Source: a virus (taxonomy: Duplodnaviria > Caudoviricetes). From it: a stretch of 52,786 bases of DNA. The translations under genes were made by a program, and so were the position numbers. The notes beneath the pieces are model-generated. The model was not told the DNA's origin. It made no database searches and worked only from the letters and a program-made list of their open reading frames with translations. Below, piece after piece: positions 1 through 11,497 of this stretch. The number at the start of each line of letters is the position of its first letter. Position 1 is the first letter of the stretch. The DNA is taken from the IMG/VR virus record IMGVR_UViG_3300033148_006306, positions 1 to 52,786 of that record, one strand, 5' to 3'.

Positions 1-12
1 GGTCACCAACAC
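1..12. repeat. 12-bp terminal direct repeat GGTCACCAACAC, left copy (putative cos end)
   Basis: Identical to 52775-52786; lies upstream of the terminase genes as lambda cos does. Confidence 0.8.
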
Positions 13-48
13 TCCGCAAAGTATGTATCTCGGCAGTTTTTCCTGTGA

Positions 49-260
49 TGTCCATGTCCTCTGGGAGTTTCAAAAAAATTATTCAAAAAAGAAATATATT
101 TCTTTTTATTGAAAAATACGATACAATATAACTGTAATTCATAAAATAGACATATCTTTCCATAATCCCAACGGACATATATGGACAAAAAGGGGATAAA
201 AACATATGATAGACTTAGAAAGCCTCGATAATGAAGAGAACATAGAGCGTGTCCATGTCC
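49..260. repeat. cosB-like repeats (putative small terminase binding sites)
   Basis: TGTCCATGTCC at 49-59 and 250-260; inverted variant GGACATATATGGACA at 173-187. Confidence 0.45.
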
Positions 261-445
261 AGACAGGACTGAGTAAAAAGAACATTGGATTGACATATAT
301 CCATAATAAAAAGAAAGATAAAAGTGGAATGTGGAAAGCTTTATCTCTTGGTTCTTTGTGTATGGAGAAAAATATTTCTATGCCAGAATTAGAAATAGCA
401 CTAGAAGAAGCAAAAAAATACAGAGAATTACATGGCAATAGCTAA
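206..445 (+). CDS. Hypothetical protein
   Basis: 79-aa ORF with AGGGG SD, overlaps terS start. Confidence 0.6.
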   Translation: MIDLESLDNEENIERVHVQTGLSKKNIGLTYIHNKKKDKSGMWKALSLGSLCMEKNISMPELEIALEEAKKYRELHGNS

Positions 446-1181
446 AAACACTTCTTCTTCTGAACTAAAAGAACTTCCGAAATGGAAAAAAATAGAAGAA
501 TCAAATGTAGAAATCACGTTAAAAAGATTTATAAGCGATAGGGAAGTGGTTTCAAAACAAGAACTTGTAGGCATATTAGGCAAAAGTGCAAAAACGATAC
601 AAAGGTACATAAGCGATGGTATGCCAGTGCATCAAGCTTCAACAAGGGCATTTCAAATATTTGATATTGAAGAAATAATTGTATGGAGAGACAAGTCAAT
701 AGACAAGGTTAAGTCACAGAAAACAGCTTCTAGGCAAACAGAAATGGAAATTAGTATAAGTGACAATGGTGAAGATGAAGAACTTGTCGCCCTAACAGAT
801 ATGGAGCGTAAGCTCAAAGCAGACGCAGACAAAGCAGAGCATGATGCAGTTATAGCAGACCTAAAAAAGAAAAAAGAAGAAGGCTCACTTATCTCTACTA
901 AAGAGCTAAAAAACACACTAGCCGACTTGACAACGGTTTTTATGACTCTCTATATGAATGATAAAAAACTTCTACCGGTGCAACTACAAAACAAAACCAC
1001 AAATGAGATGAGAGACTATCTTGATCTTCATTATGCAAAAAGGATTGAGGATTTAAAAAGATATGTGGAGTTGGAGTTTGAGGGAAGTGAGCAGAGTTTA
1101 CATGACGTAATATACAAAATCTTAGAGCAACTTCGAGACGGAGTGCACATAGACGAAATACTTAAAAGGATAGAGAAATGA
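432..1181 (+). CDS. terS: Terminase small subunit, Nu1-like
   Basis: Winged-HTH VSKQELVGILGKSAKTIQRYISDGMP followed by coiled coil; upstream of terL. Confidence 0.85.
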   Translation: MAIAKNTSSSELKELPKWKKIEESNVEITLKRFISDREVVSKQELVGILGKSAKTIQRYISDGMPVHQASTRAFQIFDIEEIIVWRDKSIDKVKSQKTASRQTEMEISISDNGEDEELVALTDMERKLKADADKAEHDAVIADLKKKKEEGSLISTKELKNTLADLTTVFMTLYMNDKKLLPVQLQNKTTNEMRDYLDLHYAKRIEDLKRYVELEFEGSEQSLHDVIYKILEQLRDGVHIDEILKRIEK

Positions 1182-1525
1182 GAGAGATTAAATTTAGATT
1201 ATTTGATAGACGAGAAGATAAAATGAAAAAATTGATATATTCTAAAGATTTTGAAGCTTTTAGTTTATCGTATTGTTTAAAAAATGAAAGTGAATATGTT
1301 GTTATGCAATACACTGGACTAAAAGATAAAAATGGTGTAGAGATTTATGAAGGGGATATTGTTAATATTCCAGAGCATTATGAGTATGATTTTTTAGCAA
1401 AAGAAATAAACGAAGTTATTGAATTTGAAGATGGAGCATTTAATATAGATAGTGCAGATATAGCAAATTGCGGAATCACTGTTATCGGGAACATATATGA
1501 AAACAGAGAACTTTTAGAGAAATAA
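1178..1525 (+). CDS. YopX family protein
   Basis: MREIKFR...MQYTGLKDKNGVEIYEGDIV...VIGNIYEN signature. Confidence 0.92.
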   Translation: MREIKFRLFDRREDKMKKLIYSKDFEAFSLSYCLKNESEYVVMQYTGLKDKNGVEIYEGDIVNIPEHYEYDFLAKEINEVIEFEDGAFNIDSADIANCGITVIGNIYENRELLEK

Positions 1526-3496
1526 ATGTCTCACCTAATAAGCCACTATGACCCATCATTACTAAACATCCTAAAGTGGGAAAAGGACATATCCACAAAA
1601 GAGTGGTGTGAAAACAACGTGTATCTCCATACAGATGCTTCACCTACTCCTGGTATGGTTAGGTTTGATGATACTCCACATATTGAAGAGGTGTTGCGAG
1701 ATTTTGATAAAAACTATGTATGGAAACAGCTTTTAAACTGGTCTACACAAACAGGTAAAACTTTTACTATGCAGTGTGCTTGGGCTAAGAGTATGGACAC
1801 TGACCCAGCAAGAGTACAGTGGTCTATAAAAAACAAGAATGATGTTGGAGATTATCTTGAAGAAAAGATATATCCATTTCTTCGTGGAGTAGATTCTCTT
1901 CAGAAAAAGATTATAATTTTAAGTGAAGAAAAAAAGAAAAAACTCAAAGCAGCATCCATAAACATACCAGGTGGAGGTACAACTTTTACTGGTACAACAG
2001 ATGCAGAACTTAGGTCAAAGTCAGCAAAGTATGTTTTTGCAGATGAAATAGCCCTTTATGATAAGGGTAATTTTATAGAGCTTGAGGGTAGAACAAAAGC
2101 CTTTGAGAGACACTTTCGTAAGATAATGGCAGTTTCATCAAGAAAACATCTTAATGATGAAATGGATGTGAACTATAAGACATGTGAGACAGTAAAAGAA
2201 TGGAAAACATACTGTCAAGAGTGTGAAGAATTCTTTTATGCAGGAAGCAAACATCTAAAGTTTATGACTAAAACAGAGTTTATGCAGAAGTTTGACCAAA
2301 AAGAAGAAACATACAATGTTCAGCAGCATGTAAAAGAAGCACTAAAAGACATCTATATAGAATGTCCAAATGAAGAGTGTGAGCATCACATAAGTAATGT
2401 TGAAAAAGATAAAAATATATATGACAGAAAATATAAGTTTGAAATAGTCACCGGTGACGAAGATGGAAGAACGATAGGTTATAAAGCAAACGCTCTTGCA
2501 GTAAGGATAACATCGCTTGAAATCATAGTCTCACTTCTCATAAACGCTGAATATGAAGATGACCAAGATGTGCTCCATCAGTTATATATAGACTACTTTA
2601 ATGAGTTTTATGAAAAAGAATACCACACAGCAGATCAAAACGATATGCTACTACTTGGAAACGGAGTAAAAGAGTACATAGTACCAAAAGACACAGTAAA
2701 GATATATCTCACCATAGATAACCAGATGGACTACCTCTTCGCACAAATAACAGCAGTTGGATATGGAGTAGTGCCACATGTAATGTACTTTGGAAGAATA
2801 GAGACTTGGAGCGATGCTGAAGCACTGTGGGAAATATGTCAATACCTAGAAGACGAAGACGGTGAAAACTACATGGCATCAAAGATGGGTATAGACAGAC
2901 GTGGATATAATGAGGGTCAAATAAGCAGAACAGACGAGGCAGACGCTTTTGTAAACTATATGACTCAAAAATGGGGAGAAGATAGAGTTTATGGGATGGA
3001 AGGTCACGCTGGTTTAACCGGTGGAAAATCTTTTGCAGTAGTAAATCACAAAGACTACTCAAACCAAAGACACGAACTAAAGATAAAGATCATAAAATTC
3101 TCAAATCTATACATCAAAAACCAACTCTTCAGAAGCATAGAAAGAACCATAATAAAAGCAAAAGCTGAAAAAGAAGAAGATGACGGCTTTAACTACAACG
3201 GAAAACTCTTTTACATAAACCAAGACAACATAGACAGAGACATAAAAGGCACTACAAACCTCTCAATAACAAAAATGCTCACAGCAGAAGTCCTAGACTA
3301 CGCAAAGCACCCAAAAACAGGAAAACTAGCACCAGAAAAAAGCTGGATACCAATAAGAAAAAGAAATGATGCAATAGACACATCAACAATGGCACTAACA
3401 TTCGCAGAGATGGATAAAATAATCCTAATGAAAAAACCATCAGGTGAAAACCTAGAAGCAGCACTAAACCAACTAGGAGACTTAGACTTTTCTTGA
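1526..3496 (+). CDS. terL: Terminase large subunit, lambda gpA family
   Basis: 656 aa; TPHIEEVL, Walker A STQTGKT, Walker B VFADE, Cys zinc motifs, C-terminal RNDAIDT nuclease motif. Confidence 0.9.
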   Translation: MSHLISHYDPSLLNILKWEKDISTKEWCENNVYLHTDASPTPGMVRFDDTPHIEEVLRDFDKNYVWKQLLNWSTQTGKTFTMQCAWAKSMDTDPARVQWSIKNKNDVGDYLEEKIYPFLRGVDSLQKKIIILSEEKKKKLKAASINIPGGGTTFTGTTDAELRSKSAKYVFADEIALYDKGNFIELEGRTKAFERHFRKIMAVSSRKHLNDEMDVNYKTCETVKEWKTYCQECEEFFYAGSKHLKFMTKTEFMQKFDQKEETYNVQQHVKEALKDIYIECPNEECEHHISNVEKDKNIYDRKYKFEIVTGDEDGRTIGYKANALAVRITSLEIIVSLLINAEYEDDQDVLHQLYIDYFNEFYEKEYHTADQNDMLLLGNGVKEYIVPKDTVKIYLTIDNQMDYLFAQITAVGYGVVPHVMYFGRIETWSDAEALWEICQYLEDEDGENYMASKMGIDRRGYNEGQISRTDEADAFVNYMTQKWGEDRVYGMEGHAGLTGGKSFAVVNHKDYSNQRHELKIKIIKFSNLYIKNQLFRSIERTIIKAKAEKEEDDGFNYNGKLFYINQDNIDRDIKGTTNLSITKMLTAEVLDYAKHPKTGKLAPEKSWIPIRKRNDAIDTSTMALTFAEMDKIILMKKPSGENLEAALNQLGDLDFS

Positions 3497-3534
3497 TATA
3501 GGTCAATGACTTTCACAAAAAAAAGCTATACAAT
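3493..3534 (+). promoter_or_regulatory. Promoter with FNR-type box at -41.5
   Basis: TTGATATAGGTCAA (3493-3506), 22 bp spacer, TACAAT (3529-3534). Confidence 0.7.
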
Positions 3535-3552
3535 GCTACAAAAGGATGCAAA

Positions 3553-4092
3553 ATGAACAAACATAAATTTGAAAACCCAAAAGCAGACGTAATACTAAAA
3601 GATGAAGAGGCTGTGATATATCTAAACTACTTAAAAGACAAAGGCTATGATTCAATAGATGAATTGGTAAAAAAATATAAAAATGAAGTTCAAGAAACCA
3701 CAGATAGATTAAAATATTTACGCGTAAGTTATCGTATGGAGCAAGGAATCAACAATGACATCAAAGAGGTGTTATATGGATTAAGCAGCAGACTTTCTTT
3801 ATATAGGGTTTATGGCTACGAACTCCACATGCGAAGAGAGCGTTATGTACAAGTAGCTATCGCATATATTTCCAAGAATCAGGCAGATATAGAAAGAATA
3901 CATAAATTATTTGCCGATGTTATCAAAGATAAAGCAAACGAGTTAGCCTCAGAAGCAATAGAAGAAAGACAAAAGCTATGTGATGAAGATAACAGGCTAA
4001 CAAAGCTAGAATACAAACTAAAACTCTCTAAATGGGAAAAAACATTCTGGAGAAGAGTCTTTAAAAAATTGTTTATGAAAAAGAAAACTTAA
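3553..4092 (+). CDS. Hypothetical coiled-coil protein
   Basis: 179-aa ORF, AAGGA SD. Confidence 0.75.
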   Translation: MNKHKFENPKADVILKDEEAVIYLNYLKDKGYDSIDELVKKYKNEVQETTDRLKYLRVSYRMEQGINNDIKEVLYGLSSRLSLYRVYGYELHMRRERYVQVAIAYISKNQADIERIHKLFADVIKDKANELASEAIEERQKLCDEDNRLTKLEYKLKLSKWEKTFWRRVFKKLFMKKKT

Positions 4093-4130
4093 TATAAGTC
4101 AAGGACAAAGAAACCAAAATAGTATATAAT
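4089..4130 (+). promoter_or_regulatory. Promoter with FNR-type box at -41.5
   Basis: TTAATATAAGTCAA (4089-4102), 22 bp spacer, TATAAT (4125-4130). Confidence 0.7.
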
Positions 4131-4153
4131 TTGGGTAAAGATTAGGAGATATT

Positions 4154-4405
4154 ATGAAAAAGCAAGACATCGCAGATATTACAGATTTTTTAGATACTGA
4201 AATCTGTGATTATGATTTAGAATATGATTATGAGATAGTAGATGATGTGATGCTAGTAACATTTATAGGGCACTTTACAAGCAATAGTGAAATTGAAATG
4301 ACTTTTAGATGTGTTGGTGGAAATCCTGAGTTTTATGGACTATGCGATAGCTACATTCACGCTGATACTAGAAGCTTCTGGATTAACTTTATGGGGAGTT
4401 TATAG
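4154..4405 (+). CDS. Hypothetical acidic protein
   Basis: AGGAG SD, 83 aa. Confidence 0.7.
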   Translation: MKKQDIADITDFLDTEICDYDLEYDYEIVDDVMLVTFIGHFTSNSEIEMTFRCVGGNPEFYGLCDSYIHADTRSFWINFMGSL

Positions 4406-4406
4406 T

Positions 4407-4613
4407 ATGGTATATGTAGCAGTAGATTATGATGGCAGCGAGGTAATTGTTGGGTTGGAAACAAAATATAGTTATATGTTAGAAGATAAAAGAGTTTCGC
4501 TTCGTATGGGAGTGGTTGATGCAAAAGTAATAGCTAAAGGCTCAATAGAAAAACTAATAGGCAAAAAGATAACTTGGGAAGATGAGCCAGTAGAACTAAA
4601 GGAAGAGTTATGA
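4407..4613 (+). CDS. Hypothetical phage protein
   Basis: MVYVAVDYDG...IEKLIGKKITWEDEPVEL; start moved to ATG 4407 with GGAG SD. Confidence 0.7.
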   Translation: MVYVAVDYDGSEVIVGLETKYSYMLEDKRVSLRMGVVDAKVIAKGSIEKLIGKKITWEDEPVELKEEL

Positions 4614-4885
4614 GTGAAGTTGTTACAGAAGAAGATATATTAAGATTTGCTGACAACACAATAAGAATTACACGGGATATGCTAAGATGTGAAGACTTTA
4701 ATGGAGTAAGAGAGCGTTTAAGAACAGTAACGCTAGCAGGCTTTATATATGAAGACAGTTTAATAATGAGAGCTTCTTTATCTGAGCCTTTTATTGAGTT
4801 TTGTCAAGACACATTAGATTTTAGTATGGAAGAGATGTTAGAGCATGATAGCAGACTAATAGCACAAGCCAAATTGATCGCATAA
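4610..4885 (+). CDS. Hypothetical protein
   Basis: ATGA overlap with upstream gene. Confidence 0.7.
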   Translation: MSEVVTEEDILRFADNTIRITRDMLRCEDFNGVRERLRTVTLAGFIYEDSLIMRASLSEPFIEFCQDTLDFSMEEMLEHDSRLIAQAKLIA

Positions 4886-4905
4886 GAAATGAAGAGGAGT
4901 AGATA

Positions 4906-5274
4906 GTGTATAAAGAAAAGATAATAGCTTCATTAGATAAACTAGCAAATGGAGAACTAAAAGCTCTATGGGAGCGAATACAGTTTGATTTTGTACCAGA
5001 TATAGGAGAAAAAGCTATGCTAAGAGATGATATAAAAGATAAAGTTTCAGACATAATTACTTCAAACCTAACAGACCCCAGACTTGTAGTTCAAGAGCAA
5101 CACAACTGGGTAGAGTTAAATATGGATGCAGTAGATGTGACTGAGTTGAGTTGTTTTATTGAAGCAGAGTTTGACATAGACTTCATTAGTCCAGACGCAG
5201 TAAGCAAATGGAACACAGTAGCAGACATAGTAAACTACATAGAAGATCAATTAGAAGGAAAAGACAATGGATAG
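4906..5274 (+). CDS. Acyl-carrier-protein-like protein lacking the phosphopantetheine serine
   Basis: C-terminal ~80 aa align to AcpP; LNMDAVDVTEL corresponds to LGADSLDTVEL, followed by IEAEFDI and TVADIVNYI. Confidence 0.8.
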   Translation: MYKEKIIASLDKLANGELKALWERIQFDFVPDIGEKAMLRDDIKDKVSDIITSNLTDPRLVVQEQHNWVELNMDAVDVTELSCFIEAEFDIDFISPDAVSKWNTVADIVNYIEDQLEGKDNG

Positions 5275-5575
5275 TTTTATCAAAAAATTATTATATCCTA
5301 AGTATGTTATTATGAAAGGTATACAGATAGATAATAGGGCGATTATGTTTTTAGGGATAAATACTAAATTAACAAAAGAAAAACTTTATAACCATAATGT
5401 TTTGGAATTTTCTAATCATAGCAGTCAATATTATACATCAAATATTTACAAGAGAATTTATACATTTAAACAGCTTTTGAAGTGGTATAGATTATTAGGC
5501 AAAAAAGACTCTAAGTGCTTAGAATATAAATCATTTAAATGGCAACATATCAAAGAAAAAGGACTCCTAAAATGA
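5267..5575 (+). CDS. Hypothetical protein
   Basis: Overlapping ORF in operon. Confidence 0.6.
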   Translation: MDSFIKKLLYPKYVIMKGIQIDNRAIMFLGINTKLTKEKLYNHNVLEFSNHSSQYYTSNIYKRIYTFKQLLKWYRLLGKKDSKCLEYKSFKWQHIKEKGLLK

Positions 5576-5748
5576 AAACACACATAGTATCAGAAGTAGT
5601 AGATGGAAGAGTAATTGAAACACCACTATCAGAACAACAAGCAAAAAAACTATATAAAAAACTAAAAAAAGCCGGAGCAGACACAAAGCTATATAAACGA
5701 TGCACAGAGCAAGTAGAGAAACCAGATATGCCAAAAGCGGAAGTGTGA
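5572..5748 (+). CDS. Hypothetical protein
   Basis: ATG 5572 with AAGGA SD. Confidence 0.6.
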   Translation: MKTHIVSEVVDGRVIETPLSEQQAKKLYKKLKKAGADTKLYKRCTEQVEKPDMPKAEV

Positions 5749-5749
5749 G

Positions 5750-6148
5750 ATGAGCAGTGCAGTAGATCATAAAAAAGTAAAAATACAAGAAATAATATGC
5801 GGTTGTCTCAGAAGCAACACTGAAGCGATAGCTATAGACACAATAGCTAGTTTCATAATAGAGCAAGACTCGAAGCTAGAAGATGAGATAAAGTGGAAAA
5901 CCGCTCAGATAGAAAATATGAAACAAAAGATAGAAGAACTTGAATTTAACATGTCAGAACACAAAAGACTTCATAGTGAACTTAATGATATTCTTCATCC
6001 AAATGGGGATAAGCCTGAAAATCCATCTCTTTGTGATTTAGTTGCTTATGTACGGAAAGATTTAAAGAAACCAAAACTATCTGACTATACAATAGATGAA
6101 TTGGTAATGGAAATAGAGGACAGAGGTCAAGAAATTGGATTTATGTAA
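5750..6148 (+). CDS. Hypothetical protein
   Basis: 132-aa ORF in operon. Confidence 0.65.
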   Translation: MSSAVDHKKVKIQEIICGCLRSNTEAIAIDTIASFIIEQDSKLEDEIKWKTAQIENMKQKIEELEFNMSEHKRLHSELNDILHPNGDKPENPSLCDLVAYVRKDLKKPKLSDYTIDELVMEIEDRGQEIGFM

Positions 6149-6166
6149 TAAATGGGGGAAGAGATA

Positions 6167-6670
6167 ATGAGCACTATAACTTTTAAAGACACAAACGAAA
6201 CATTTGAGATAATGGCACAAGACAAACGATACTTAATTTGTCAAAGACCATATACTGTAGCAGAGAGAGCTTTGGAAATAAAAAAGCATGATGAAGGCTT
6301 CGAGGAAGCTCTGAAAGAAGAGTTTGAGACAGTAGCAAAACATTTTAACTATGACTATGATGAGTTTTGTGATGATGATGACCAACGCGACAGAATATGG
6401 GATAATTATAGCGATGAATGTGGAGAACAACCAGAGCCATTGAGCGAAGACACTTTCTGCTACACAATAGTAGACCTACAAGAAAAGAAAAGAGCACCTG
6501 ATAACTACTACTGCAAATTCAACTACGATAAAAAAGAAGAGTGTAAAAAGGCTCTAAAAGAACTAAACACAATCACAAAAGAATCTAAGGGCACTCCTTG
6601 CGAAGAGTATGAAATGCAACTATCAAGAAGAAGATCAATAGAACTCTCAGAGTATGAGATAAAGGAATAG
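6167..6670 (+). CDS. Hypothetical acidic protein
   Basis: ORF in operon; alternative start at 6152. Confidence 0.7.
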   Translation: MSTITFKDTNETFEIMAQDKRYLICQRPYTVAERALEIKKHDEGFEEALKEEFETVAKHFNYDYDEFCDDDDQRDRIWDNYSDECGEQPEPLSEDTFCYTIVDLQEKKRAPDNYYCKFNYDKKEECKKALKELNTITKESKGTPCEEYEMQLSRRRSIELSEYEIKE

Positions 6671-6672
6671 AG

Positions 6673-6897
6673 ATGAGTAAGAAGCTAATAGCAACAAGGG
6701 TATTTTATAGCTATCAAGGATTAAACAATCAAAATAGTATAATTTCACATGGCAGTGGAGCTATAGATGTTCCTGACGAAGAACTATTTGACTTTTTATT
6801 AAAAGGAGCACAAAATAGTAATAGTGAAGTAGCATCAATTCAGATTTTATCAATATGCCCCTTAGAATTAAAAGAAGTAAAAGATGCCGAAGAATAA
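6673..6897 (+). CDS. Hypothetical protein
   Basis: AAGGA SD. Confidence 0.6.
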   Translation: MSKKLIATRVFYSYQGLNNQNSIISHGSGAIDVPDEELFDFLLKGAQNSNSEVASIQILSICPLELKEVKDAEE

Positions 6898-7132
6898 TCT
6901 AAAACACGGTGTACTACTACTAATAACCCACCAAGAAGAACTAAACCAACTAAGTGAGGTGCAAGACGGTGTTGAGGTAGATGCTCTGTTCATAAACGAA
7001 CCATACTTAGTCTTCATGGATGAAGTGCTACACATAGTGCCAAGAAGCCAACTAGAAGACGGTCACTTTATGAGTGAAGTTAAACCAAGGAAGTTTAAGT
7101 CTTGGTATAAATCAATAAGAAGGAAGATGTAA
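6884..7132 (+). CDS. Hypothetical protein
   Basis: Overlapping ORF in operon. Confidence 0.6.
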   Translation: MPKNNLKHGVLLLITHQEELNQLSEVQDGVEVDALFINEPYLVFMDEVLHIVPRSQLEDGHFMSEVKPRKFKSWYKSIRRKM

Positions 7133-7342
7133 ATGCAGACAAGACTAGAAAGCTTCATAGAAGTGCTACATAACCAATGGTCAGGAATAGTTGTGGGATG
7201 GTGTATAGTTTTCTTTCTATTTCCATTGTTTGACCATTTGCAACAACACTGGGTAGCAACAATATCAACAATACTGTTTTTTATGTCCTCTTTTATGAGA
7301 ATGTGGATAATAAGAAGATACTTTAACGGGAGAGTGAAATGA
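7133..7342 (+). CDS. Small two-TM membrane protein (MQTRLESFIE...RRYFN type seen beside phage methyltransferases)
   Basis: Two hydrophobic segments and conserved-looking termini. Confidence 0.7.
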   Translation: MQTRLESFIEVLHNQWSGIVVGWCIVFFLFPLFDHLQQHWVATISTILFFMSSFMRMWIIRRYFNGRVK

Positions 7343-7863
7343 TAGAAAGTAAAAAAGTTTTATATTCAAAAGGCAATAGTGACGAGCAATACACACCTGC
7401 TTATGCAGTAGAGCCTATCTTAGAGTTTATTCCAAAAGATGCTATAGTTTGGTGTCCATTTGATAAAGCGGACAGTGAGTTTGTAAAACAGATACGCAAA
7501 AAAGGAAACACAGTAATAATAAGCCATATAGACGATGATAAATGCTTTTTTGAATACGAACCTGCCGAATGGGATATTTTAATCTCAAATCCACCTTTCA
7601 CAAACAAGCGTAAGTATTTTGAGAGAGCATTGAGTTTTAACAAACCTTTTGCTTTAGTAATGACAAATACTTGGCTAAACGACTCAGCACCAAAACAACT
7701 CTTCAAATACAAAGACTTACAACTACTGATGTTTGATAAAAGAATGAAATTTGTAAATCCTGATGGCAGAGCAAATAATAAAATAACTTTCAGCAGCAGC
7801 TACTACTGTTGGAACTTTTTACCAAAACAAATAATAATGAAAGAATTAGTGATAAAAACTTGA
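7339..7863 (+). CDS. Phage N6-adenine DNA methyltransferase
   Basis: DEQYTP, IVWCPFD and catalytic ISNPPF motifs. Confidence 0.85.
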   Translation: MIESKKVLYSKGNSDEQYTPAYAVEPILEFIPKDAIVWCPFDKADSEFVKQIRKKGNTVIISHIDDDKCFFEYEPAEWDILISNPPFTNKRKYFERALSFNKPFALVMTNTWLNDSAPKQLFKYKDLQLLMFDKRMKFVNPDGRANNKITFSSSYYCWNFLPKQIIMKELVIKT

Positions 7864-7901
7864 TATGAATCAAGGCAATAAAACCAAACCTATGTAATAA
7901 T
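7860..7901 (+). promoter_or_regulatory. Promoter with FNR-type box at -41.5
   Basis: TTGATATGAATCAA (7860-7873), 22 bp spacer, TGt-AATAAT (-10 at 7896-7901). Confidence 0.65.
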
Positions 7902-7918
7902 ACACAAAAGGATAAAAA

Positions 7919-8131
7919 GTGAAACTCTGGGAAATATATTTTCATAGCGTAATGTGTTTTGAGAAAGGTCTTTATGTCTTACAGTCAGAAAATGAACCAA
8001 CAGAAGAAGAATGTCTAAAAGCACTATATGAAAACACATACACCGGAACAATCTACTTCGAGTCAGTAGAAGAGATAACCGAAAAAGAACTAAGATATAA
8101 AAAATACACACTAATGCAGAAGGATAATTAA
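7919..8131 (+). CDS. Hypothetical protein
   Basis: GTG start with AAGGA SD. Confidence 0.6.
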   Translation: MKLWEIYFHSVMCFEKGLYVLQSENEPTEEECLKALYENTYTGTIYFESVEEITEKELRYKKYTLMQKDN

Positions 8132-8317
8132 ATGGGTACTGTAAAAACTAAACAAAAATATGAATGTGACTCTTGTGGAAAAGTTGGCGTATGGTCTAAA
8201 GGATGGCTACATAGAACAATATATCATAGAAGATGGGATGAATTAATAACTGTTTGCAGCGAGAAATGTGCAGATAAATATGATGGTAAGAAGAACAAAG
8301 AAAATGCAAAAGTGTAA
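8132..8317 (+). CDS. Small zinc-finger-like protein
   Basis: CDSC...CSEKC. Confidence 0.65.
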   Translation: MGTVKTKQKYECDSCGKVGVWSKGWLHRTIYHRRWDELITVCSEKCADKYDGKKNKENAKV

Positions 8318-8489
8318 CGGTAGATTTTGTGAGTATAAAGATGTATGTCTTCATGCTATTGAAGCACAAAAGCTCATACACATAAAAGATAAATGGATAA
8401 AAGTAGAACTATGCAGAACAGGATTACTGAGTGTAGATGGTAAAAAGTACCTAAGACTACCATTCACAGACCTGCTACTAAAGGACTAA
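8304..8489 (+). CDS. Small Cys-containing protein
   Basis: MQKCNGRFCEYKDVC; start moved to ATG 8304. Confidence 0.55.
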   Translation: MQKCNGRFCEYKDVCLHAIEAQKLIHIKDKWIKVELCRTGLLSVDGKKYLRLPFTDLLLKD

Positions 8490-8490
8490 A

Positions 8491-8664
8491 ATGCTAAAGC
8501 ATGAAAAACGCAACATAAAAGAAAAATACAACACTATAAAAGCAAGAGCAATCGCAGGAGAATATGATACGCAAATAATCATAACTCTAATAATAGCAGC
8601 AGTTCTAGGAAGTATTAGTGCCGTATATGTATGGGAATGGTTTAAAAGATGGTTACAACAATAA
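8491..8664 (+). CDS. Small membrane protein (57 aa, not in ORF track)
   Basis: AAGGA SD; single TM segment IIITLIIAAVLGSISAVYVW. Confidence 0.6.
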   Translation: MLKHEKRNIKEKYNTIKARAIAGEYDTQIIITLIIAAVLGSISAVYVWEWFKRWLQQ

Positions 8665-8843
8665 GCTGTTCATACATCTCTGATGGTAAGGTAATAGCTC
8701 AAAATGAAGATGCTACCTATGTCTATAAGCACAATCTTTCAGAAGAGGGAACTCTAAAGCTTCTAAAGTTACTAGGTAAAACACCGGAGATAAACGAAGA
8801 ACACTGGATAGTAGAGTGGGAAAAGAGTGCTTGTGGTTTTTAG
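8649..8843 (+). CDS. Hypothetical protein
   Basis: Overlapping ORF in operon. Confidence 0.55.
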   Translation: MVTTISCSYISDGKVIAQNEDATYVYKHNLSEEGTLKLLKLLGKTPEINEEHWIVEWEKSACGF

Positions 8844-8876
8844 AGCAGAAGTGATATAATACAAAAAAGGAAAAAC

Positions 8877-9221
8877 ATGATAATCTACAGTAAAAACGAA
8901 AACTACAAAATATGGGCAAACACAAAAGATTTTACATTTCATATCCAGATGGAAGGTCAAGAGATAGAAGAAGAAGGCTATCAAACATCAGGACTAGCAA
9001 TAGAACAAGCGGAACAAAACATACCAAAAGAAGTAGCGATAACTCTAACAAAATGCTCAACACCTAAAACAATGAAGTGTCCTCTGTGTGAAGACTGCAT
9101 AAGAAACCAACCCTCAACACACCAACTAGAAGACTATGAACAGTTCAACCCAAAGAAAGCACCAATGCGACCTTGGATTTGTGATGGCTATGAACATAAA
9201 GACCAAAAGAGTCTACTATGA
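8877..9221 (+). CDS. Hypothetical protein with C-terminal Cys-rich domain
   Basis: TGATATAAT promoter at 8852-8860, AAGGA SD. Confidence 0.7.
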   Translation: MIIYSKNENYKIWANTKDFTFHIQMEGQEIEEEGYQTSGLAIEQAEQNIPKEVAITLTKCSTPKTMKCPLCEDCIRNQPSTHQLEDYEQFNPKKAPMRPWICDGYEHKDQKSLL

Positions 9222-9451
9222 AAACAGACTACGCATACTGCTTAGACGAACATACCTGTATCCACAGAAGAGGGTGCAGAAGATGGATAGGAAACTACCC
9301 CAATGAAGAAGTAAAAGAACTTACAAACAGTAACAGAGATGAATACATAAACGACAAAGACTGTGTACCAAATTACAGTGATGTAAACTGCGAGAACGAC
9401 TTTGATATGCTAGATAGATATAGACTAAGTGATGGGAGTGAGATGAAATGA
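9218..9451 (+). CDS. Small Cys-rich protein
   Basis: DYAYC...C...GCRR. Confidence 0.65.
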   Translation: MKTDYAYCLDEHTCIHRRGCRRWIGNYPNEEVKELTNSNRDEYINDKDCVPNYSDVNCENDFDMLDRYRLSDGSEMK

Positions 9452-9897
9452 TAGCATTGTTTCTTGATGTTGACGGAGTGTTGAATCAATATAGAAGAAG
9501 TGAGTGTATTCGTAGACACAAGATAGATTATGATTTTTGTTTTACACCTTTCAAAAAGAAAGTTATGAGATTATCCAAGCTTGTAAAAAAATACAACTTA
9601 GATGTTTATGTGTTTAGTGCATGGACAGAAGAAAACTTACAGCCACATTTGCCTTTTAAGCTATGTGGAGACACTGGAAAGTGGATTGAAAATGTTAACG
9701 AGGCATCAAATAAATATAAACATTCAATACTTGTAGACGATGAAATATCTCCAAAGATGGGCAAAGAGAATGGATATGGAGGAGAACAAGTCAATTTAAA
9801 AGAAGATATTGTAACCTATCAGCCTCACTATAACTTTGGTTTAGTTTTGAAAGATTTTAAAAAACTTGATAAAATACTAAAAAGGCTAAACGAATGA
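9448..9897 (+). CDS. HAD-superfamily protein (HAD_SAK_2-like)
   Basis: LFLDVDGVLN motif I and ILVDD motif. Confidence 0.8.
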   Translation: MIALFLDVDGVLNQYRRSECIRRHKIDYDFCFTPFKKKVMRLSKLVKKYNLDVYVFSAWTEENLQPHLPFKLCGDTGKWIENVNEASNKYKHSILVDDEISPKMGKENGYGGEQVNLKEDIVTYQPHYNFGLVLKDFKKLDKILKRLNE

Positions 9898-10091
9898 TAC
9901 AAAACTACACAGTAATGCCAGAACTAATCTTTTCTGCTTTTTGTGCTATACTTTCACTAATCGCAATAACAAGGATTTTACTTGAAAGTAGCACTAATAA
10001 GCATAGTTTCAACACTGTTTACCTTATGGATAAGCTGGATAAGCTACGAAGTTTTTACAATGTCAACAAGTATCGCTCTTATAGACTATAA
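9894..10091 (+). CDS. Hypothetical membrane protein
   Basis: One hydrophobic segment; ATGA overlap. Confidence 0.4.
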   Translation: MIQNYTVMPELIFSAFCAILSLIAITRILLESSTNKHSFNTVYLMDKLDKLRSFYNVNKYRSYRL

Positions 10092-10133
10092 AATAAACTC
10101 ACTAAATCCTGTACTTCAAGACCTCAGTGAAAG

Positions 10134-10487
10134 ATGAAATCTAAACACGGGAACACAAAAACTTTTAGAATAATAAAGGGAGAGAAAGTTCCCTTTGATA
10201 GTTTCAAAGAAGCAAATCGTTTTGACCAACTATATCTACTAGCAAAAGCTAAAAAGATTTCACAGCTTACTATCCAACCAAAATACCTATTAATGGAAGC
10301 CCAAACACACAACGGTTTCACATACAAAAGCGTTTCATACATAGCAGACTTCAGATATATAAAAAACGGAAAAACAATCGTAGAAGATGTAAAATCAGAT
10401 CACACAAAGAAACTAGCCACATATAGAGTTAAGATAAAATGGTTTCTATCTCTCTATGGAAAAGATCTAACTTTTATAGAAACTTGA
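10134..10487 (+). CDS. DUF1064 family PD-(D/E)XK nuclease-like protein
   Basis: FDSFKEANRF, LTIQPKY, YIADFRY, VEDVKS. Confidence 0.88.
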   Translation: MKSKHGNTKTFRIIKGEKVPFDSFKEANRFDQLYLLAKAKKISQLTIQPKYLLMEAQTHNGFTYKSVSYIADFRYIKNGKTIVEDVKSDHTKKLATYRVKIKWFLSLYGKDLTFIET

Positions 10488-10524
10488 TATAGGTCAAGAA
10501 GATACTTTTGGAATATGTTATACT
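10484..10524 (+). promoter_or_regulatory. Promoter with FNR-type box driving the sORF / ncRNA / tRNA-like region
   Basis: TTGATATAGGTCAA (10484-10497), 21 bp spacer, TGt-TATACT (-10 at 10519-10524). Confidence 0.7.
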
Positions 10525-10573
10525 TATACTTTCAATTCGATAAAAAGATATAAATTCAAAAGAAGGAGAGACT

Positions 10574-10627
10574 GTGAAATTCAAACCAATCGGTTATTTT
10601 CCAACTATAAATAAAAAAAGAAAATAA
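10574..10627 (+). CDS. Putative 17-aa leader peptide MKFKPIGYFPTINKKRK
   Basis: GTG start with strong AGAAGGAG SD. Confidence 0.4.
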   Translation: MKFKPIGYFPTINKKRK

Positions 10628-10631
10628 TCTG

Positions 10632-11006
10632 GTCATCGTGCTGCAAAAAATGAAGTCCAACTTAGATGTTGGTCAAAGAAAACAAGTTGTAGGTAGCCTT
10701 AAAATGAAGATATTAGGCTTTGTAAGTAAACCAAACATTCTCCTGCAAAACACTAAGACTTTTTATGAAGCATCTATTCTAAGTAGTTGTTTCTCCGAGA
10801 GTTTCTCGGTTTGTGTCAAATCCTTAAATCCAGAAGTCTTTTCTTCTGGATTGTTTATGACATAAGAACTTTTGATGGAGCAGACAGACATACCAAGATG
10901 TTGAGAGACGGCAACCACTTAGATTAACTTCAATGGCTAGACTTGAAGAAACTACTAACGAGGATACAAATCAAGCAATGCTCTCAGTCTGTTTCACAAA
11001 GAGTTT
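10632..11006 (+). ncRNA. Putative structured non-coding RNA, two multibranch domains
   Basis: At least ten nested helices visible by eye (see findings). Confidence 0.55.
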
Positions 11007-11014
11007 AAGCATAC

Positions 11015-11139
11015 GCACCATTAGCTCAGTTGGTTAGAGCAGATTGTAGGTCTGAAAAACCTCAAATACACAAGATGATACTAATTTCATCGTATTAGAA
11101 AACAGTCACAGGTCACTGGTTCGAGTCCAGTATGGTGAG
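11015..11139 (+). tRNA. Non-canonical tRNA-like RNA with a branched insert in the anticodon arm (contains a CU-GAA-AA Phe-type loop)
   Basis: Acceptor CACCAT/ATGGTG, D-arm GCTC-AGTTGGTTA-GAGC, T-arm ACTGG-TTCGAGT-CCAGT; 1-72 mismatch; no encoded CCA. Confidence 0.75.
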
Positions 11140-11164
11140 ACAGGCAAACTAAGAGGTTAACCTA

Positions 11165-11183
11165 GGAGCTATCTAATAGCTCC
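11165..11183 (+). terminator. Hairpin after the tRNA-like element
   Basis: GGAGCTA-tctaa-TAGCTCC; no U-tract. Confidence 0.35.
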
Positions 11184-11211
11184 GTCATATCACAAACAAA
11201 ACAAATTTCCT

Positions 11212-11248
11212 TTGACTTATGTTAATATCCTACATTTTATGATATAAT
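11212..11248 (+). promoter_or_regulatory. Head operon promoter with box over the -35
   Basis: TTGACTTATGTTAA (11212-11225), 17 bp spacer, TGa-TATAAT (-10 at 11243-11248). Confidence 0.65.
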
Positions 11249-11281
11249 ACTCATAATGCAAATTTCAAGTAGGAAAGTTTA

Positions 11282-11497
11282 ATGGCACAAGCAACCATAG
11301 ATTCAGAAATCGCTGACCTAACAACCAGAATCTCACTACTTGATGACGAAATAAAAGAACAGCAACATCTTTCAGAACTAGAAGAGGGCGGTGGCAACGC
11401 TAGATTCCGTACACAGTTCGCAGACATCGGAAAACTGTATGACAGACGAGATACTTTAAATACAAGGCTACAAGCATTACTAAGGAGTCAGATTTGA
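11282..11497 (+). CDS. Head-tail joining protein, gpW-like
   Basis: 71-aa helix-hairpin-helix pattern directly upstream of portal. Confidence 0.65.
   Translation: MAQATIDSEIADLTTRISLLDDEIKEQQHLSELEEGGGNARFRTQFADIGKLYDRRDTLNTRLQALLRSQI

What the first reader, a model, noticed from the sequence alone, without database searches (positions are those of the whole stretch)
4906..5274. Phage acyl carrier protein mimic with Ser-to-Ala at the prosthetic-group site
Seen: IKDKVSDIITSNL...WVELNMDAVDVTELSCFIEAEFDIDFISPDAVSKWNTVADIVNYIE aligns with AcpP over its full length, but DSL reads DAV (GCA codon). There is also a ~40-aa N-terminal extension. Known: ACP needs that Ser for 4'-phosphopantetheine, and E. 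coli AcpP also partners SpoT and MukB. Inference: a permanently apo ACP decoy that could jam AcpS or fatty-acid/lipid A enzymes, or titrate ACP-dependent stress or defence proteins.
Basis: partly seen in the sequence, partly recalled or inferred. Interest (0 to 1): 0.75.

Follow-up and report, generated by a model that had tools for sequence, protein, structure and literature searches.

The report
Phage carrier-protein look-alike without its serine
A tailed phage carries a small acidic protein with the fold of the bacterial fatty-acid carrier protein but with alanine where the cofactor-holding serine should be; the loss is inherited across a whole unnamed phage family, so the protein most likely works by binding another protein, still unidentified.

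Summary
ORF 4906..5274 (+, 122 aa, GTG start behind GAGGAG) has a 37-residue N-terminal helical hairpin followed by a complete acyl carrier protein (ACP) four-helix domain. Ala75 (GCA, 5128-5130) sits where ACPs have the phosphopantetheine serine. AlphaFold2 gives pLDDT 87, and every one of the top 50 solved-structure matches is a carrier protein (Z 9.6-12.9).

The alanine is not a one-off mutation or a sequencing error. The protein belongs to a rare, unnamed family of 76 metagenomic phage sequences. Only 9 have Ser at the site and only 4 keep a canonical D-S-x-D/E motif, and those 4 lie at the base of the family tree. The window's five-member clade is all D-A-x-D.

The "AcpP decoy" reading is weakly supported. 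Across the family, the helix-II acidic residues that ACP partners read are relaxed (E41 28%, E47 34%, against 88% and 100% in true ACPs). A different set is nearly invariant: R40-D41-D42-I43, E64, W102 and D107.

The domain occurs with a helical hairpin, with a beta-rich N-domain, or alone. Distant Ser-less relatives are fused to MazG pyrophosphatases in two cultured phages.

Best reading: an ACP-derived protein-binding module that does not act as a carrier. Its partner is unknown.

The parts
4894..4899 (+). Shine-Dalgarno-like GAGGAG, six bases before the GTG start
   Evidence: Read from the sequence. Relatives begin at the same place (MYRQKIIASLD, MSYKEKIIASLD).
4906..5274 (+). Whole gene for the Ser-less ACP-fold protein: 122 aa, pI 4.2, net charge -15
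   Evidence: ORF list; charge; AF2 pLDDT 87.
4906..5016 (+). N-terminal extension, residues 1-37: two predicted helices (2-11 and 15-29) plus a linker. It is family-specific and is replaced by other modules in relatives.
   Evidence: AF2; conserved K5, I6, E17, L21, I25. No solved-structure match covers it. In P0125 a beta-rich domain replaces it.
5005..5019 (+). Internal GGAG (5005-5008) and ATG (5017-5019, Met38). Short-form relatives start at this point, so it is a possible second start.
   Evidence: Sequence. Short forms begin MLRDDI in L003 and L087. An SD-like element precedes the internal ATG in 3 of 3 long-form loci.
5017..5256 (+). ACP-like four-helix domain, residues 38-117 (helices 40-54, 75-89, 96-100, 105-121)
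   Evidence: AF2. Foldseek against PDB: 1vku E 1e-4 TMt 0.83, 4dxe_I TMt 0.89. VIA-align: 6lvt Z 12.9, rmsd 1.5, 79 aligned.
5023..5034 (+). Family signature R40-D41-D42-I43 at the start of helix I
   Evidence: Present in 75, 69, 70 and 75 of 76 family sequences. The commonest residue at each of these four columns reaches 25%, 21%, 29% and 60% among 48 true ACPs.
5125..5136 (+). D74-A75-V76-D77 in place of ACP D-S-L-D. Ala75 = GCA at 5128-5130 is the lost phosphopantetheine site.
5128..5172 (+). Helix II (residues 75-89), the ACP 'recognition helix'. The window keeps D77, E80, E86, E88 and F89, but has S82 and C83 for V43 and M44.
   Evidence: AF2; column table.
5209..5211 (+). Trp102 codon. 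Family-invariant Trp where E. coli AcpP has Ile62.
   Evidence: W in 74 of 76; alignment to EcAcpP.
5267..5575 (+). Downstream ORF of 102 aa, pI 9.9. Its ATG overlaps the end of the ACP-like gene by 8 nt. It has no relatives in the four related loci and no family match. Listed as context; whether it is a partner is unknown.

Best explanation
The gene encodes an ACP-derived 'pseudo-carrier': a small, very acidic protein that keeps the ACP four-helix fold but cannot receive 4'-phosphopantetheine at the canonical site (Ala75). It therefore cannot carry acyl groups.

It belongs to a rare family confined, as far as seen, to a lineage of lambda-like siphoviruses. Rooted on true ACPs, the family looks derived from a genuine serine-bearing carrier, and the serine was given up early, mostly for alanine.

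Selection in the family now holds two things. One is the fold core. The other is a family-specific set of residues: R40-D41-D42-I43 at the start of helix I, E64 in loop 1, W102 and D107 before and in helix IV, and E113, L116 and E117 at its end. The helix-II acidic residues through which all canonical ACP partners dock are not held.

I infer that the domain works as a protein-binding module using a new surface. Three observations suggest the partner differs between phages:
- The N-terminal part varies (helical hairpin here; a beta-rich domain or nothing in relatives).
- Some relatives carry conserved C-terminal tail motifs.
- Distant Ser-less relatives are fused to MazG-type pyrophosphatases.

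Shown: fold, homology, loss of Ser, inheritance of the loss, the shift in conservation, and modularity. Inferred: that it binds a partner at all, and which one. The partner is unknown. Nucleotide-pool enzymes (MazG, ThyX) are the only candidates with any comparative support.
For: Fold and homology:
- AF2 with a 47-row alignment gives pLDDT 87.
- The top Foldseek hits against PDB are ACPs.
- All 50 listed VIA-align hits are carrier proteins, Z 9.6-12.9, covering residues ~34-121.
- Sequence matches: TIGR00517 E 2e-10; PDB ACPs.

Loss of Ser is inherited:
- 76 family sequences (75 distinct domains) have A 34, P 11, S 9, R 5, T 4 and others 13 at the site. A canonical D-S-x-D/E motif occurs in 4 of 76, and 47 of 76 have no Ser within two residues.
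- In a tree rooted on 14 true ACPs, the family is one clade (SH-aLRT 94).
- The 4 canonical members lie in its basal polytomy.
- The window lies in a starred 5-member clade that is all D-A-[VN]-D, inside a starred 29-member clade with A 18, P 7 and one each of V, S, T, I.

Shift of constraint, 47 family sequences against 48 true ACPs from the same search:
- D35: 66% against 98%.
- S36: 15% against 94%.
- D38: 62% against 94%.
- E41: 28% against 88%.
- E47: 34% against 100%.
- Gained in the family: R40 98%, D42 91%, I43 100%, E64 96%, W102 96%. The same holds in all 76.

Modularity:
- P0125 shares a 70%-identical ACP-like domain with the window protein but has a 7-strand N-domain.
- Short forms start at Met38 as separate genes.

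Fusion and adjacency:
- Rhizobium phage P106B gp67 has a Ser-less ACP-like N-domain. The support is hhalign against the family at probability 62%, E 7.6e-5; tblastn at 34.7% over 75 aa; and a BFVD structural hit, W6E8I3. Its C-domain is MazG-like.
- Agrobacterium phage 7-7-1 gp087 appears to have a similar architecture. Its ACP-like stretch was judged by eye and by a weak Pfam match (PP-binding_2, E 0.061), not by an alignment to the family.
- In relative L084 the next gene is MazG-like (22.2 bits, cut-off 22). In L087 the preceding gene is ThyX (E 4.6e-29).

No phosphopantetheinyl transferase (PF01648) was found in the window record or in two related virus records.
Against: - No partner has been identified.
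- The immediate neighbours of the gene differ in all five loci with context.
- The window itself has no detectable MazG, and its neighbours match no family.
- The MazG link rests on two fusions in distant relatives, one of which (7-7-1) was not aligned to the family, and on one adjacency. These accessory regions often hold nucleotide-metabolism genes anyway.
- I could not map the conserved residues onto the model, because coordinates are not exposed. That they form one surface patch is therefore assumed, not shown.
- Some of them (I43, F89, V105) are surely core residues.
- The 48 'true ACPs' used for comparison are the ones most like the query, not a neutral sample.
- The window protein itself keeps five helix-II acidic residues, which also fits the decoy reading.
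- All three virus records searched are fragments (CheckV 43-74%).
Confidence: 0.6

Rival explanations
1. The protein is a permanently apo AcpP mimic that docks, through helix II, onto host enzymes that bind ACP (AcpS, PlsB, FAS or lipid A enzymes). It blocks them as a host-takeover or growth-arrest device.
For: - The window protein keeps the equivalents of D35, D38, E41, E47, E49 and F50 (D74, D77, E80, E86, E88, F89) and is as acidic as AcpP, with pI 4.2.
- Ala is the minimal change that prevents modification.
- Ala dominates the family at 34 of 76, with D kept before it in 44 of 76 and after it in 52 of 76. The local geometry therefore still appears to matter.
- D35, E41 and E47/E48 are the AcpS contact residues (bioRxiv 10.1101/2025.01.28.635281, abstract).
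Against: - E41 and E47 equivalents are kept in only 24 and 22 of 76 family members. They vary even in the window's own larger clade; for example P0009 has A and I, and P0013 has N at D35.
- V43 and M44 are S82 and C83 here and mostly acidic in the family. V43E and M44I each abolish most ACP partner interactions in E. coli (PMC3340395, passages).
- The residues that are nearly invariant in the family lie outside helix II.
- The gene sits in a co-directional array between terminase and portal, with no promoter or terminator signal above chance. That is not where early takeover genes usually lie; this is an inference.
- The host is unknown, so likeness to the host's own AcpP could not be tested.
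Confidence: 0.15
2. An accessory or regulatory subunit of a phage nucleotide-pool enzyme (a MazG-type NTP pyrophosphatase, or ThyX). This is a specific version of the binding-module reading and overlaps with the best explanation.
For: - A Ser-less ACP-like domain is fused to MazG-like domains in Rhizobium phage P106B and probably in Agrobacterium phage 7-7-1.
- A MazG-like gene lies directly downstream in L084, and ThyX directly upstream in L087.
- The 7-7-1 fusion lies two genes upstream of a nucleoside 2-deoxyribosyltransferase gene.
Against: - No MazG was found in the window record or in G002.
- The P106B MazG domain has no tblastn match in the window or its four relatives.
- Only 2 of 5 family loci show such a neighbour.
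- Among 386 phage records matching P106B gp67, only P106B (two records) and 7-7-1 (two records) cover the N-terminal part.
- The fused domains are distant relatives (hhalign probability 62%), not family members.
Confidence: 0.12
3. It is still a carrier, modified at a non-canonical residue or by an unusual transferase.
For: - Four basal family members keep D-S-[LS]-D and could be modified.
- 14 further members have a Ser one residue before the aligned site, which a one-column alignment shift would place at the site.
- Four members have Thr at the site.
Against: - The window protein has no Ser or Thr within two residues of the site (M-D-A-V-D).
- 47 of 76 members have no Ser within two residues.
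- No PF01648 transferase was found in the three virus records searched.
- S36T ACP is unmodified and non-functional in E. coli (PMC3340395, passages).
Confidence: 0.03
4. A decaying, functionless remnant of a phage ACP gene.
For: - The catalytically essential residue has been lost.
- The family is rare; most clusters have 1-2 member sequences.
Against: - The frame is intact, with an SD, in every locus seen.
- 76 sequences at 25-70% identity keep the hydrophobic pattern and nine nearly invariant residues.
- The AF2 model is confident.
- The domain has been recombined with different N-terminal modules while staying 70% identical.
Confidence: 0.03

Closest known systems
Bacterial type II fatty-acid-synthesis acyl carrier protein (AcpP; TIGR00517, Pfam PF00550), e.g. 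Thermotoga maritima ACP (1vku, 6lvt) and E. coli AcpP
   Same: - Same four-helix fold: Z 12.9, rmsd 1.5 over 79 of 81 residues to 6lvt.
- About 30% identity and the same length of domain.
- Same acidity.
- Helix II starts at the same place with D-x-x-D, and the E-F at its end is kept.
   Different: - Ala replaces the phosphopantetheine Ser.
- Scores fall below the Pfam and NCBIfam cut-offs.
- There is a 37-residue N-terminal hairpin.
- Family constraint has moved off helix II (E41, E47) onto R40-D41-D42, E64 and W102.
- No fab genes or transferase lie nearby.
Phage-encoded acyl carrier proteins annotated as auxiliary metabolic genes (PHROG 5934; BFVD models from phiCbK, PhiW-14, Olleya phage Harreka_1 and uncultured phages)
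   Same: They are phage-borne and share the fold (BFVD TMt up to 0.86). PHROG 5934 matches at E 3.3e-6 over residues 39-119.
   Different: - I could not see whether those proteins keep the Ser.
- The Ser-bearing sequences nearest to this family in the protein search all carry D-S-L-D and fall outside the family clade.
- Prophage acpP genes described in Rhodobacteraceae sit within fabG-acpP-fabF (PMC8224337, passages). This gene does not.
Rhizobium phage vB_RglS_P106B gp67 and Agrobacterium phage 7-7-1 gp087 ('MazG-like pyrophosphatase')
   Same: In P106B gp67 the N-terminal ~75 residues form an ACP-like domain without the Ser (Gly at the site by my reading). It keeps the 'W-E-T-V-A-D-V' stretch before helix IV. 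Support: 35% identity and hhalign E 7.6e-5 to the family, and a BFVD structural hit. In 7-7-1 gp087 a similar stretch is internal (about residues 145-215), after an extra N-terminal domain; it has Ile at the site by my eye alignment, with only a weak Pfam match (PP-binding_2, E 0.061).
   Different: - The domain is fused to a ~150-residue MazG-like domain.
- It has no MLRDDI signature.
- It lies in replication-gene neighbourhoods of unrelated phages.
- These are distant relatives, not members of the family.
Engineered apo-locked E. coli ACP (S36T and apo-ACP overproduction)
   Same: These cannot be phosphopantetheinylated (PMC3340395, passages). Apo-ACP inhibits glycerol-3-phosphate acyltransferase and growth (PMC3896788, passages). 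This is the functional analogy behind the decoy idea.
   Different: Those are otherwise wild-type AcpP. The phage protein differs at V43 and M44, and its family does not conserve the partner-contact residues.
Other serine-less ACP look-alikes noted by this scan in giant phages (e1-5370611, e1-6021389, e1-5986748)
   Same: They are phage proteins with an ACP fold and no cofactor Ser, read as docking modules with unknown partners. These are AI notes and I did not check them.
   Different: There is no sequence likeness to this protein in the scan's index. They come from jumbo phages, with Asp or Glu at the site in two of them. This one is from a ~53-kb siphovirus, with Ala.

Membership tests
Acyl carrier protein / PP-binding (Pfam PF00550; NCBIfam TIGR00517) | Four-helix carrier-protein fold | tested here: met
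   AF2 pLDDT 87. Foldseek TMt 0.79-0.89 to solved ACPs. VIA-align Z 12.9 to 6lvt, and all 50 listed hits are carrier proteins.
Acyl carrier protein / PP-binding (Pfam PF00550; NCBIfam TIGR00517) | Profile score at or above the curated cut-off | tested here: not met
   PF00550: 19.3 bits against 20.8. TIGR00517: 40.4 against 70.45. 19 of 47 family members match PF00550 at E<=0.01.
Acyl carrier protein / PP-binding (Pfam PF00550; NCBIfam TIGR00517) | Serine of the D-S-L motif at the N-terminus of helix II (the phosphopantetheine attachment site) | tested here: not met
   Ala75, GCA at 5128-5130. Ser at the site in 9 of 76 relatives; canonical motif in 4 of 76.
Acyl carrier protein / PP-binding (Pfam PF00550; NCBIfam TIGR00517) | Conserved acidic helix-II recognition surface (D35, D38, E41, E47/E48) | tested here: inconclusive
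   The window protein keeps D74, D77, E80 and E86, but has A87 for E48 and S82/C83 for V43/M44. The family keeps E41 in 24 of 76 and E47 in 22 of 76.
Acyl carrier protein / PP-binding (Pfam PF00550; NCBIfam TIGR00517) | Actual phosphopantetheinylation and acyl carriage | not testable with these tools
   This needs mass spectrometry of the expressed protein.
Acyl carrier protein / PP-binding (Pfam PF00550; NCBIfam TIGR00517) | Genomic association with a phosphopantetheinyl transferase or with fab, PKS or NRPS genes | tested here: not met
   No PF01648 match in the window record or in two related virus records, all of them fragments. The neighbours match no lipid-metabolism family.
PHROG 5934 'acyl carrier protein' (phage) | Profile match over the whole domain | tested here: met
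   E 3.3e-6, residues 39-119 against profile 11-91 of 93. PHROGs has no curated cut-off, and the name says nothing about the Ser.
New family proposed here (MLRDDI-type Ser-less phage ACP-like proteins) | R-D-D-I at the start of helix I, E64, W102 and D107, with clade membership apart from true ACPs | tested here: met
   The window has all of these residues. They are present in 69-75 of 76 members. The family forms a clade at SH-aLRT 95 (46 of 47 rows) and 94 (76 rows).
MazG-fused ACP-like domain (P106B gp67 type) | Covalent fusion to, or adjacency with, a MazG domain | tested here: not met
   No MazG match in the window record. The window's neighbours have no family match.

The most novel reading that the evidence does not exclude
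The ACP fold has been re-used by phages as a portable, cofactor-free docking module.

In this siphovirus lineage it has acquired a new binding surface (R-D-D at helix I, E64, W102). It has been shuffled between at least three N-terminal contexts, and some members carry conserved C-terminal peptide motifs (LECALHDME, ISGFEVEA). In other phages a related Ser-less domain is welded to MazG.

If these all act on one class of target, for instance by tethering nucleotide-pool enzymes or other cargo to a host or phage hub protein, this would be a new kind of phage adaptor built from a metabolic carrier. It would also mean that 'acyl carrier protein' annotations in phage genomes are often wrong about function.
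Probability: 0.15. Interest if true: 0.7.

Novelty: new variant of a known kind. Interest (0 to 1): 0.5.

Why it matters
Phage ACP genes are routinely filed as auxiliary metabolic genes for lipid synthesis. This case shows a whole phage family for which that label cannot be right, because the cofactor site is gone and the partner-recognition helix is no longer under constraint.

It offers a clean natural example of a carrier protein turned into something else. The evolutionary path is traceable: basal members still carry D-S-L-D.

It also gives concrete handles for finding the new function: the invariant residues, the tail motifs, the swapped N-domains and the MazG fusions in cultured Rhizobium and Agrobacterium phages.

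If the decoy reading turned out to be right after all, it would be a new route of host takeover through lipid metabolism.

Tried and rejected
- **Close relatives in GenBank phages.** Megablast of 4000-6500 and tblastn of the protein against 50,697 phage records found nothing.
- **Prophage copies, to find the host.** The one scan of genome contigs returned 80 loci (of 159 confirmed). I translated 21 of the 80 and all 21 were housekeeping AcpP genes with D-S-[LI]-D. No host could be inferred.
- **Host by TerL.** The nearest TerL is Thiohalocapsa phage at 38.5%, then Nitratiruptor phages at 23%. That is too distant to name a host.
- **Metagenome scan.** It gave 65 loci. I translated 12 of them. 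Two (L086, L087) are family members and the other ten are ordinary ACPs.
- **Larger fusion proteins.** A search among 350-2000-residue proteins found none, which the tool itself calls weak evidence.
- **Fold of the N-terminal hairpin and of the beta-rich N-domain of P0125.** The fold searches list only carrier-protein matches to the C-terminal domain, so these parts remain untested.
- **Homodimer prediction of the window protein.** No verdict (score 0.10, mark 0.42). This is not evidence either way.
- **Conserved neighbour as partner.** tblastn of eight window neighbours and five proteins of related loci (including a thymidylate synthase and a MazG-type pyrophosphatase from those loci) across the five loci found no shared immediate neighbour. 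Two small proteins, homologues of 4407-4613 and 6884-7132, recur in the lineage but not adjacent to the gene.
- **Tail motifs or the RDDI signature elsewhere in the same phages.** None found.
- **Promoter and terminator scan of 1-12000.** Promoter-like sites are fewer than in shuffles, and there is no + strand terminator between 3500 and 7790.
- **Literature.** Six searches found no paper on serine-less phage ACP-like proteins or on ACP-MazG fusions: phage-encoded ACP; ACP + phage + conserved serine; apo-ACP toxicity; ACP + anti-phage defence; MazG + ACP + phage; ACP-like + lacks + serine + phage. The library lacks most subscription journals, and supplements were closed.
- **DNA-mimic idea (Ocr/ArdA-like).** Considered because of the acidity and the nearby methyltransferases. 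No structural match supports it, but absence from those lists does not exclude it.
Full report
**What is in the window**

The window is a 52,786-base virus record, linear, with estimated completeness 62% and about 34% G+C. Its genes are those of a lambda-like siphovirus:
- small and large terminase;
- portal;
- ClpP-type head protease, decoration protein and major head protein;
- tape measure protein and J-type central fibre;
- endolysin;
- on the other strand, SSB, an endonuclease VII-like protein, a methyltransferase and an anti-repressor.

About 8 kb of small co-directional genes lie between the large terminase (1526-3496) and the portal (11494-13056), among them a DNA methyltransferase (7339-7863). 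The finding lies in this stretch.

**The observation**

ORF 4906..5274 (+) encodes 122 residues. It starts at GTG, six bases after GAGGAG. Residues ~38-117 match acyl carrier proteins:
- phmmer against PDB sequences: 93 chains at E<=10, best 2lol_A at E 6.7e-7;
- NCBIfam TIGR00517: E 2e-10;
- Pfam PP-binding: E 1.4e-3;
- PHROG 5934: E 3.3e-6.

The curated cut-offs of Pfam and NCBIfam are not reached. In each printed alignment the ACP D-S-L/I-D aligns with D74-A75-V76-D77. Codon 75 is GCA at 5128-5130.

AlphaFold2 with a 47-row family alignment gives mean pLDDT 87. It predicts two N-terminal helices (2-11, 15-29), a less confident linker, and four helices (40-54, 75-89, 96-100, 105-121), with helix II starting exactly at Ala75. 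Foldseek against PDB returns ACPs (1vku E 1e-4; TMt up to 0.89 for 4dxe_I). An all-against-representatives structural search lists only carrier proteins among its 50 rows (Z 9.6-12.9), spanning residues ~34-121.

**Is the alanine a one-off?**

No. A full scan of 1.84 billion representatives gave 102 hits at E<=1e-3. I set aside 10 proteins longer than 200 residues, which are multi-domain synthase-like proteins with several matched stretches. I also set aside one 120-residue hit (P0056) that has a gap at the site.

The remaining 95 fall into two groups:
- 48 ordinary ACPs, mostly 74-108 residues, 45 of them with Ser at the site;
- 47 sequences that share an M-L-R-D-D-I start of helix I and mostly an N-terminal extension.

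I made this split by motif and by eye. A maximum-likelihood tree of the ACP-like domain, with the site's column left out, then put 46 of the 47 in one starred clade (SH-aLRT 95). One long-branch row (P0067) was unresolved beside it.

A profile search added 29 more sequences, giving 76 (75 distinct domains). At the site they have A 34, P 11, S 9, R 5, T 4, Q 3, N 2, V 2, I 2, and L, K, G, M once each. Only 4 have D-S-x-D/E. Because these alignments are short and divergent, I also looked one column to each side. A further 14 have Ser one residue earlier, in a non-canonical context, and 4 have Ser one residue later. 47 of 76, the window protein among them, have no Ser within two residues.

I rooted the tree on 14 of the 48 true ACPs, chosen by me as those nearest in the first tree plus a few others. 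The results:
- The family is one clade (SH-aLRT 94).
- The four canonical members lie in its basal polytomy.
- The window sits in a starred five-member clade (P0125, window, P0002, P0007, P0111), all D-A-[VN]-D.
- That clade is inside a starred 29-member clade with A 18, P 7 and one each of V, S, T, I.

The tree has few columns (76) for 90 rows, and most forks are unresolved. Only the starred groupings should be leaned on. Rooted this way, the family appears to descend from a real carrier. The serine was given up early, and the window's alanine is inherited.

**What is conserved instead**

I anchored the alignment on E. coli AcpP (taken from the K-12 record) and compared the 47 family members with the 48 true ACPs, in mature E. 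coli numbering.

Positions relaxed in the family:

| E. coli position | Family | True ACPs |
|---|---|---|
| D35 | 66% | 98% |
| S36 | 15% | 94% |
| D38 | 62% | 94% |
| E41 | 28% | 88% |
| M44 | replaced mostly by E or D | 71% |
| E47 | 34% | 100% |

Positions the family holds (window numbering; the ACP figure is the commonest residue at that column):

| Window residue | Family | True ACPs |
|---|---|---|
| R40 | 98% | 25% |
| D41 | 89% | 21% |
| D42 | 91% | 29% |
| I43 | 100% | 60% |
| E64 | 96% | 27% |
| W102 | 96% | 42% |
| E113 | 85% | 44% |

In all 76 the counts are R40 75, D41 69, D42 70, I43 75, E64 72, F89 74, W102 74 and D107 73. By contrast the E41-equivalent is kept in 24 and the E47-equivalent in 22.

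D35, E41 and E47/E48 are the residues through which AcpS reads E. coli ACP (bioRxiv 10.1101/2025.01.28.635281, abstract). V43E and M44I each abolish most tested interactions: FabA, PlsX, MukB and, by two-hybrid, SpoT for both, and FabZ for M44I only (PMC3340395, passages). The part of ACP that every known partner uses is therefore no longer under family-wide constraint, and another set of positions is.

Two caveats apply. The comparison set is biased towards ACPs that resemble the query. I also could not place the conserved residues on the model, so I cannot say that they form one exposed patch.

**Modularity**

The ACP-like domain occurs in three contexts:
- Behind the helical hairpin, in most members.
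- Alone, as a separate gene that starts at the Met equivalent to Met38 (L003 925-1200; L087 4776-5033).
- Behind a ~70-residue domain predicted as seven beta strands (eight members; AF2 of P0125 gives pLDDT 82.5).

P0125's ACP-like domain is 70% identical to the window's. The exchange of N-terminal parts is therefore recent relative to the divergence of the domain.

Some members end in conserved tails, absent from the window protein, which ends QLEGKDNG:
- L-E-C-A-L-H-D-M-E;
- [FY]-I-S-G-F-E-[VP]-E-A at the very C-terminus;
- an acidic run ending in Trp.

**Context**

Five loci give context: the window, L002/L084, L003, L086 and L087. All belong to related phages with the same type of large terminase, and the gene always lies in the accessory stretch next to the terminase genes.

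The immediate neighbours differ in every locus:
- Window: unknown 91-aa and 102-aa proteins.
- L084: a 67-aa protein upstream and a MazG-like protein downstream (22.2 bits, cut-off 22).
- L086: YopX upstream and an unknown 166-aa protein downstream.
- L087: ThyX upstream (E 4.6e-29).
- L003: an unknown 103-aa protein upstream.

No phosphopantetheinyl transferase was found in the three virus records that could be searched. The stretch 1-12000 has no promoter or terminator signal above chance, and no + strand terminator between 3500 and 7790. The gene is therefore probably co-transcribed with its neighbours; this is an inference.

**A fusion in cultured phages**

One BFVD structural hit was a 246-residue 'putative nucleoside triphosphate pyrophosphohydrolase' of Rhizobium phage vB_RglS_P106B (32% identity over 77 columns). 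I read that gene (P106B_67).
- Its first ~75 residues align with the family profile (hhalign probability 62%, E 7.6e-5, 35% identity) and with the window by tblastn (34.7% over 75 residues).
- It has Gly at the serine site and the same W-E-T-V-A-D-V stretch before helix IV.
- The rest is a MazG-like domain shared with 386 phage records (Pfam MazG E 0.022).

Agrobacterium phage 7-7-1 gp087 (371 aa) appears to carry a similar Ser-less ACP-like stretch before the same MazG-like domain. Pfam PP-binding_2 matches it weakly, E 0.061 at residues 167-214. I aligned this stretch to the family by eye only.

These are distant relatives, not members of the family. They show that a cofactor-free ACP fold is used as an appendage of a nucleotide pyrophosphatase in phages. 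One family member (L084) has a MazG-like gene directly downstream. I treat this as the only comparative lead to a partner, and a weak one.

**Reading**

The protein cannot be a carrier in the ordinary sense. I see three options.

*(a) A protein-binding module with a new surface.* The conservation shift, the modularity and the fusions favour this. I give it 0.6 overall, which includes about 0.12 for the specific MazG/nucleotide-enzyme version.

Apo-ACP inhibits glycerol-3-phosphate acyltransferase and growth in E. coli (PMC3896788, passages), and the window protein happens to keep five helix-II acidic residues. But that retention is not shared even by its wider clade. [quoted passage not shown] I give it 0.15.

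*(c) A non-canonical carrier, or a dead gene.* I give each 0.03. The remainder is for functions I have not thought of.

**Comparison and novelty**

The protein works like nothing yet characterised. It is homologous to AcpP but fails three of the family's defining tests: score cut-offs, the serine, and gene context. Existing libraries would label it 'acyl carrier protein' (PHROG 5934).

Six literature searches found no description of serine-less phage ACP-like proteins or of ACP-MazG fusions. The library omits most subscription journals, and supplements were closed. Prophage acpP genes described in print sit in fabG-acpP-fabF operons (PMC8224337, passages), which is a different situation.

This scan's own notes record other serine-less ACP look-alikes in giant phages (unchecked AI notes, with no sequence likeness to this one). 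The phenomenon may therefore be recurrent in phages, which lowers the surprise of one more case but raises the interest of the class. I rate it a new variant of a known kind, with interest 0.5.

Noticed in passing
window 5005-5019 (also L084 ~2210-2226, L086 ~2630-2644): An SD-like purine run lies 5-10 bases before the internal ATG (Met38) in all 3 long-form genes examined. Short-form relatives start at exactly this Met. The long genes might also produce the ACP-like domain alone by internal initiation. Alternatively, the Glu/Lys/Gly-rich linker may simply encode purine runs.
   Followed up: partly
relatives P0002-P0004, P0009, P0011, P0014-P0017, P0031, P0043, P0084, P0115-P0123, P0129 (not in the window protein): Some family members carry conserved C-terminal tails: L-E-C-A-L-H-D-M-E, and/or [FY]-I-S-G-F-E-[VP]-E-A at the extreme C-terminus, or an acidic run ending in Trp. 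They look like short docking motifs. No other ORF of the same phages carries them.
   Followed up: partly
P0125, P0127, P0128, P0041, P0016, P0027, P0029, P0043 (alignment A4): In eight relatives, a ~70-residue domain predicted as seven beta strands replaces the helical hairpin. Its fold was not identified, because carrier-protein hits fill the search lists.
   Followed up: partly
L151 43584-44324 (Rhizobium phage P106B gp67); L153 943-2058 (Agrobacterium phage 7-7-1 gp087): Proteins annotated as MazG-like pyrophosphatases in two cultured alphaproteobacterial phages carry an unannotated serine-less ACP-like domain ahead of the MazG domain. The 7-7-1 case rests on an eye alignment and a weak Pfam match.
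   Followed up: yes
window 5267-5575: A 102-aa, very basic ORF (pI 9.9) starts 8 nt before the stop of the acidic ACP-like gene (ATGGATAG overlap). It has no family match and no relatives in the four related loci.
   Followed up: partly
window 4407-4613 and 6884-7132: Two small proteins recur in this phage lineage near the terminase genes: a 68-aa protein ending ...KGSIEKLIGKKITWEDEPVELKEEL, and an 82-aa protein with ...HGVLLLI...EPYLVFMDEVL.... The first recurs in L002/L084 and L087 and, as a fused gene call, in P0024. The second recurs in L002/L084, L086 and L087. Neither matches a known family.
   Followed up: partly
window 22615-23277 (-): An HNH endonuclease gene (PHROG 374, E 1.4e-52) lies on the opposite strand inside the otherwise co-directional tail-gene block, just before the tape measure gene. 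It looks like a homing-endonuclease-type insertion.
   Followed up: no
window 7339-7863 (+), 43378-44190 (-), 40363-40956 (-): There are two DNA methyltransferase genes, and an endonuclease VII-like protein whose N-terminus weakly matches a Lar-like restriction-alleviation family. This suggests an anti-restriction load.
   Followed up: no
window 13879-15420 (+): A 513-aa protein lies downstream of the portal gene (a 277-aa ORF lies between them) and just upstream of the head protease gene. Its C-terminus (residues ~387-503) matches tail-fibre PHROGs, which is an odd place for such a domain.
   Followed up: no
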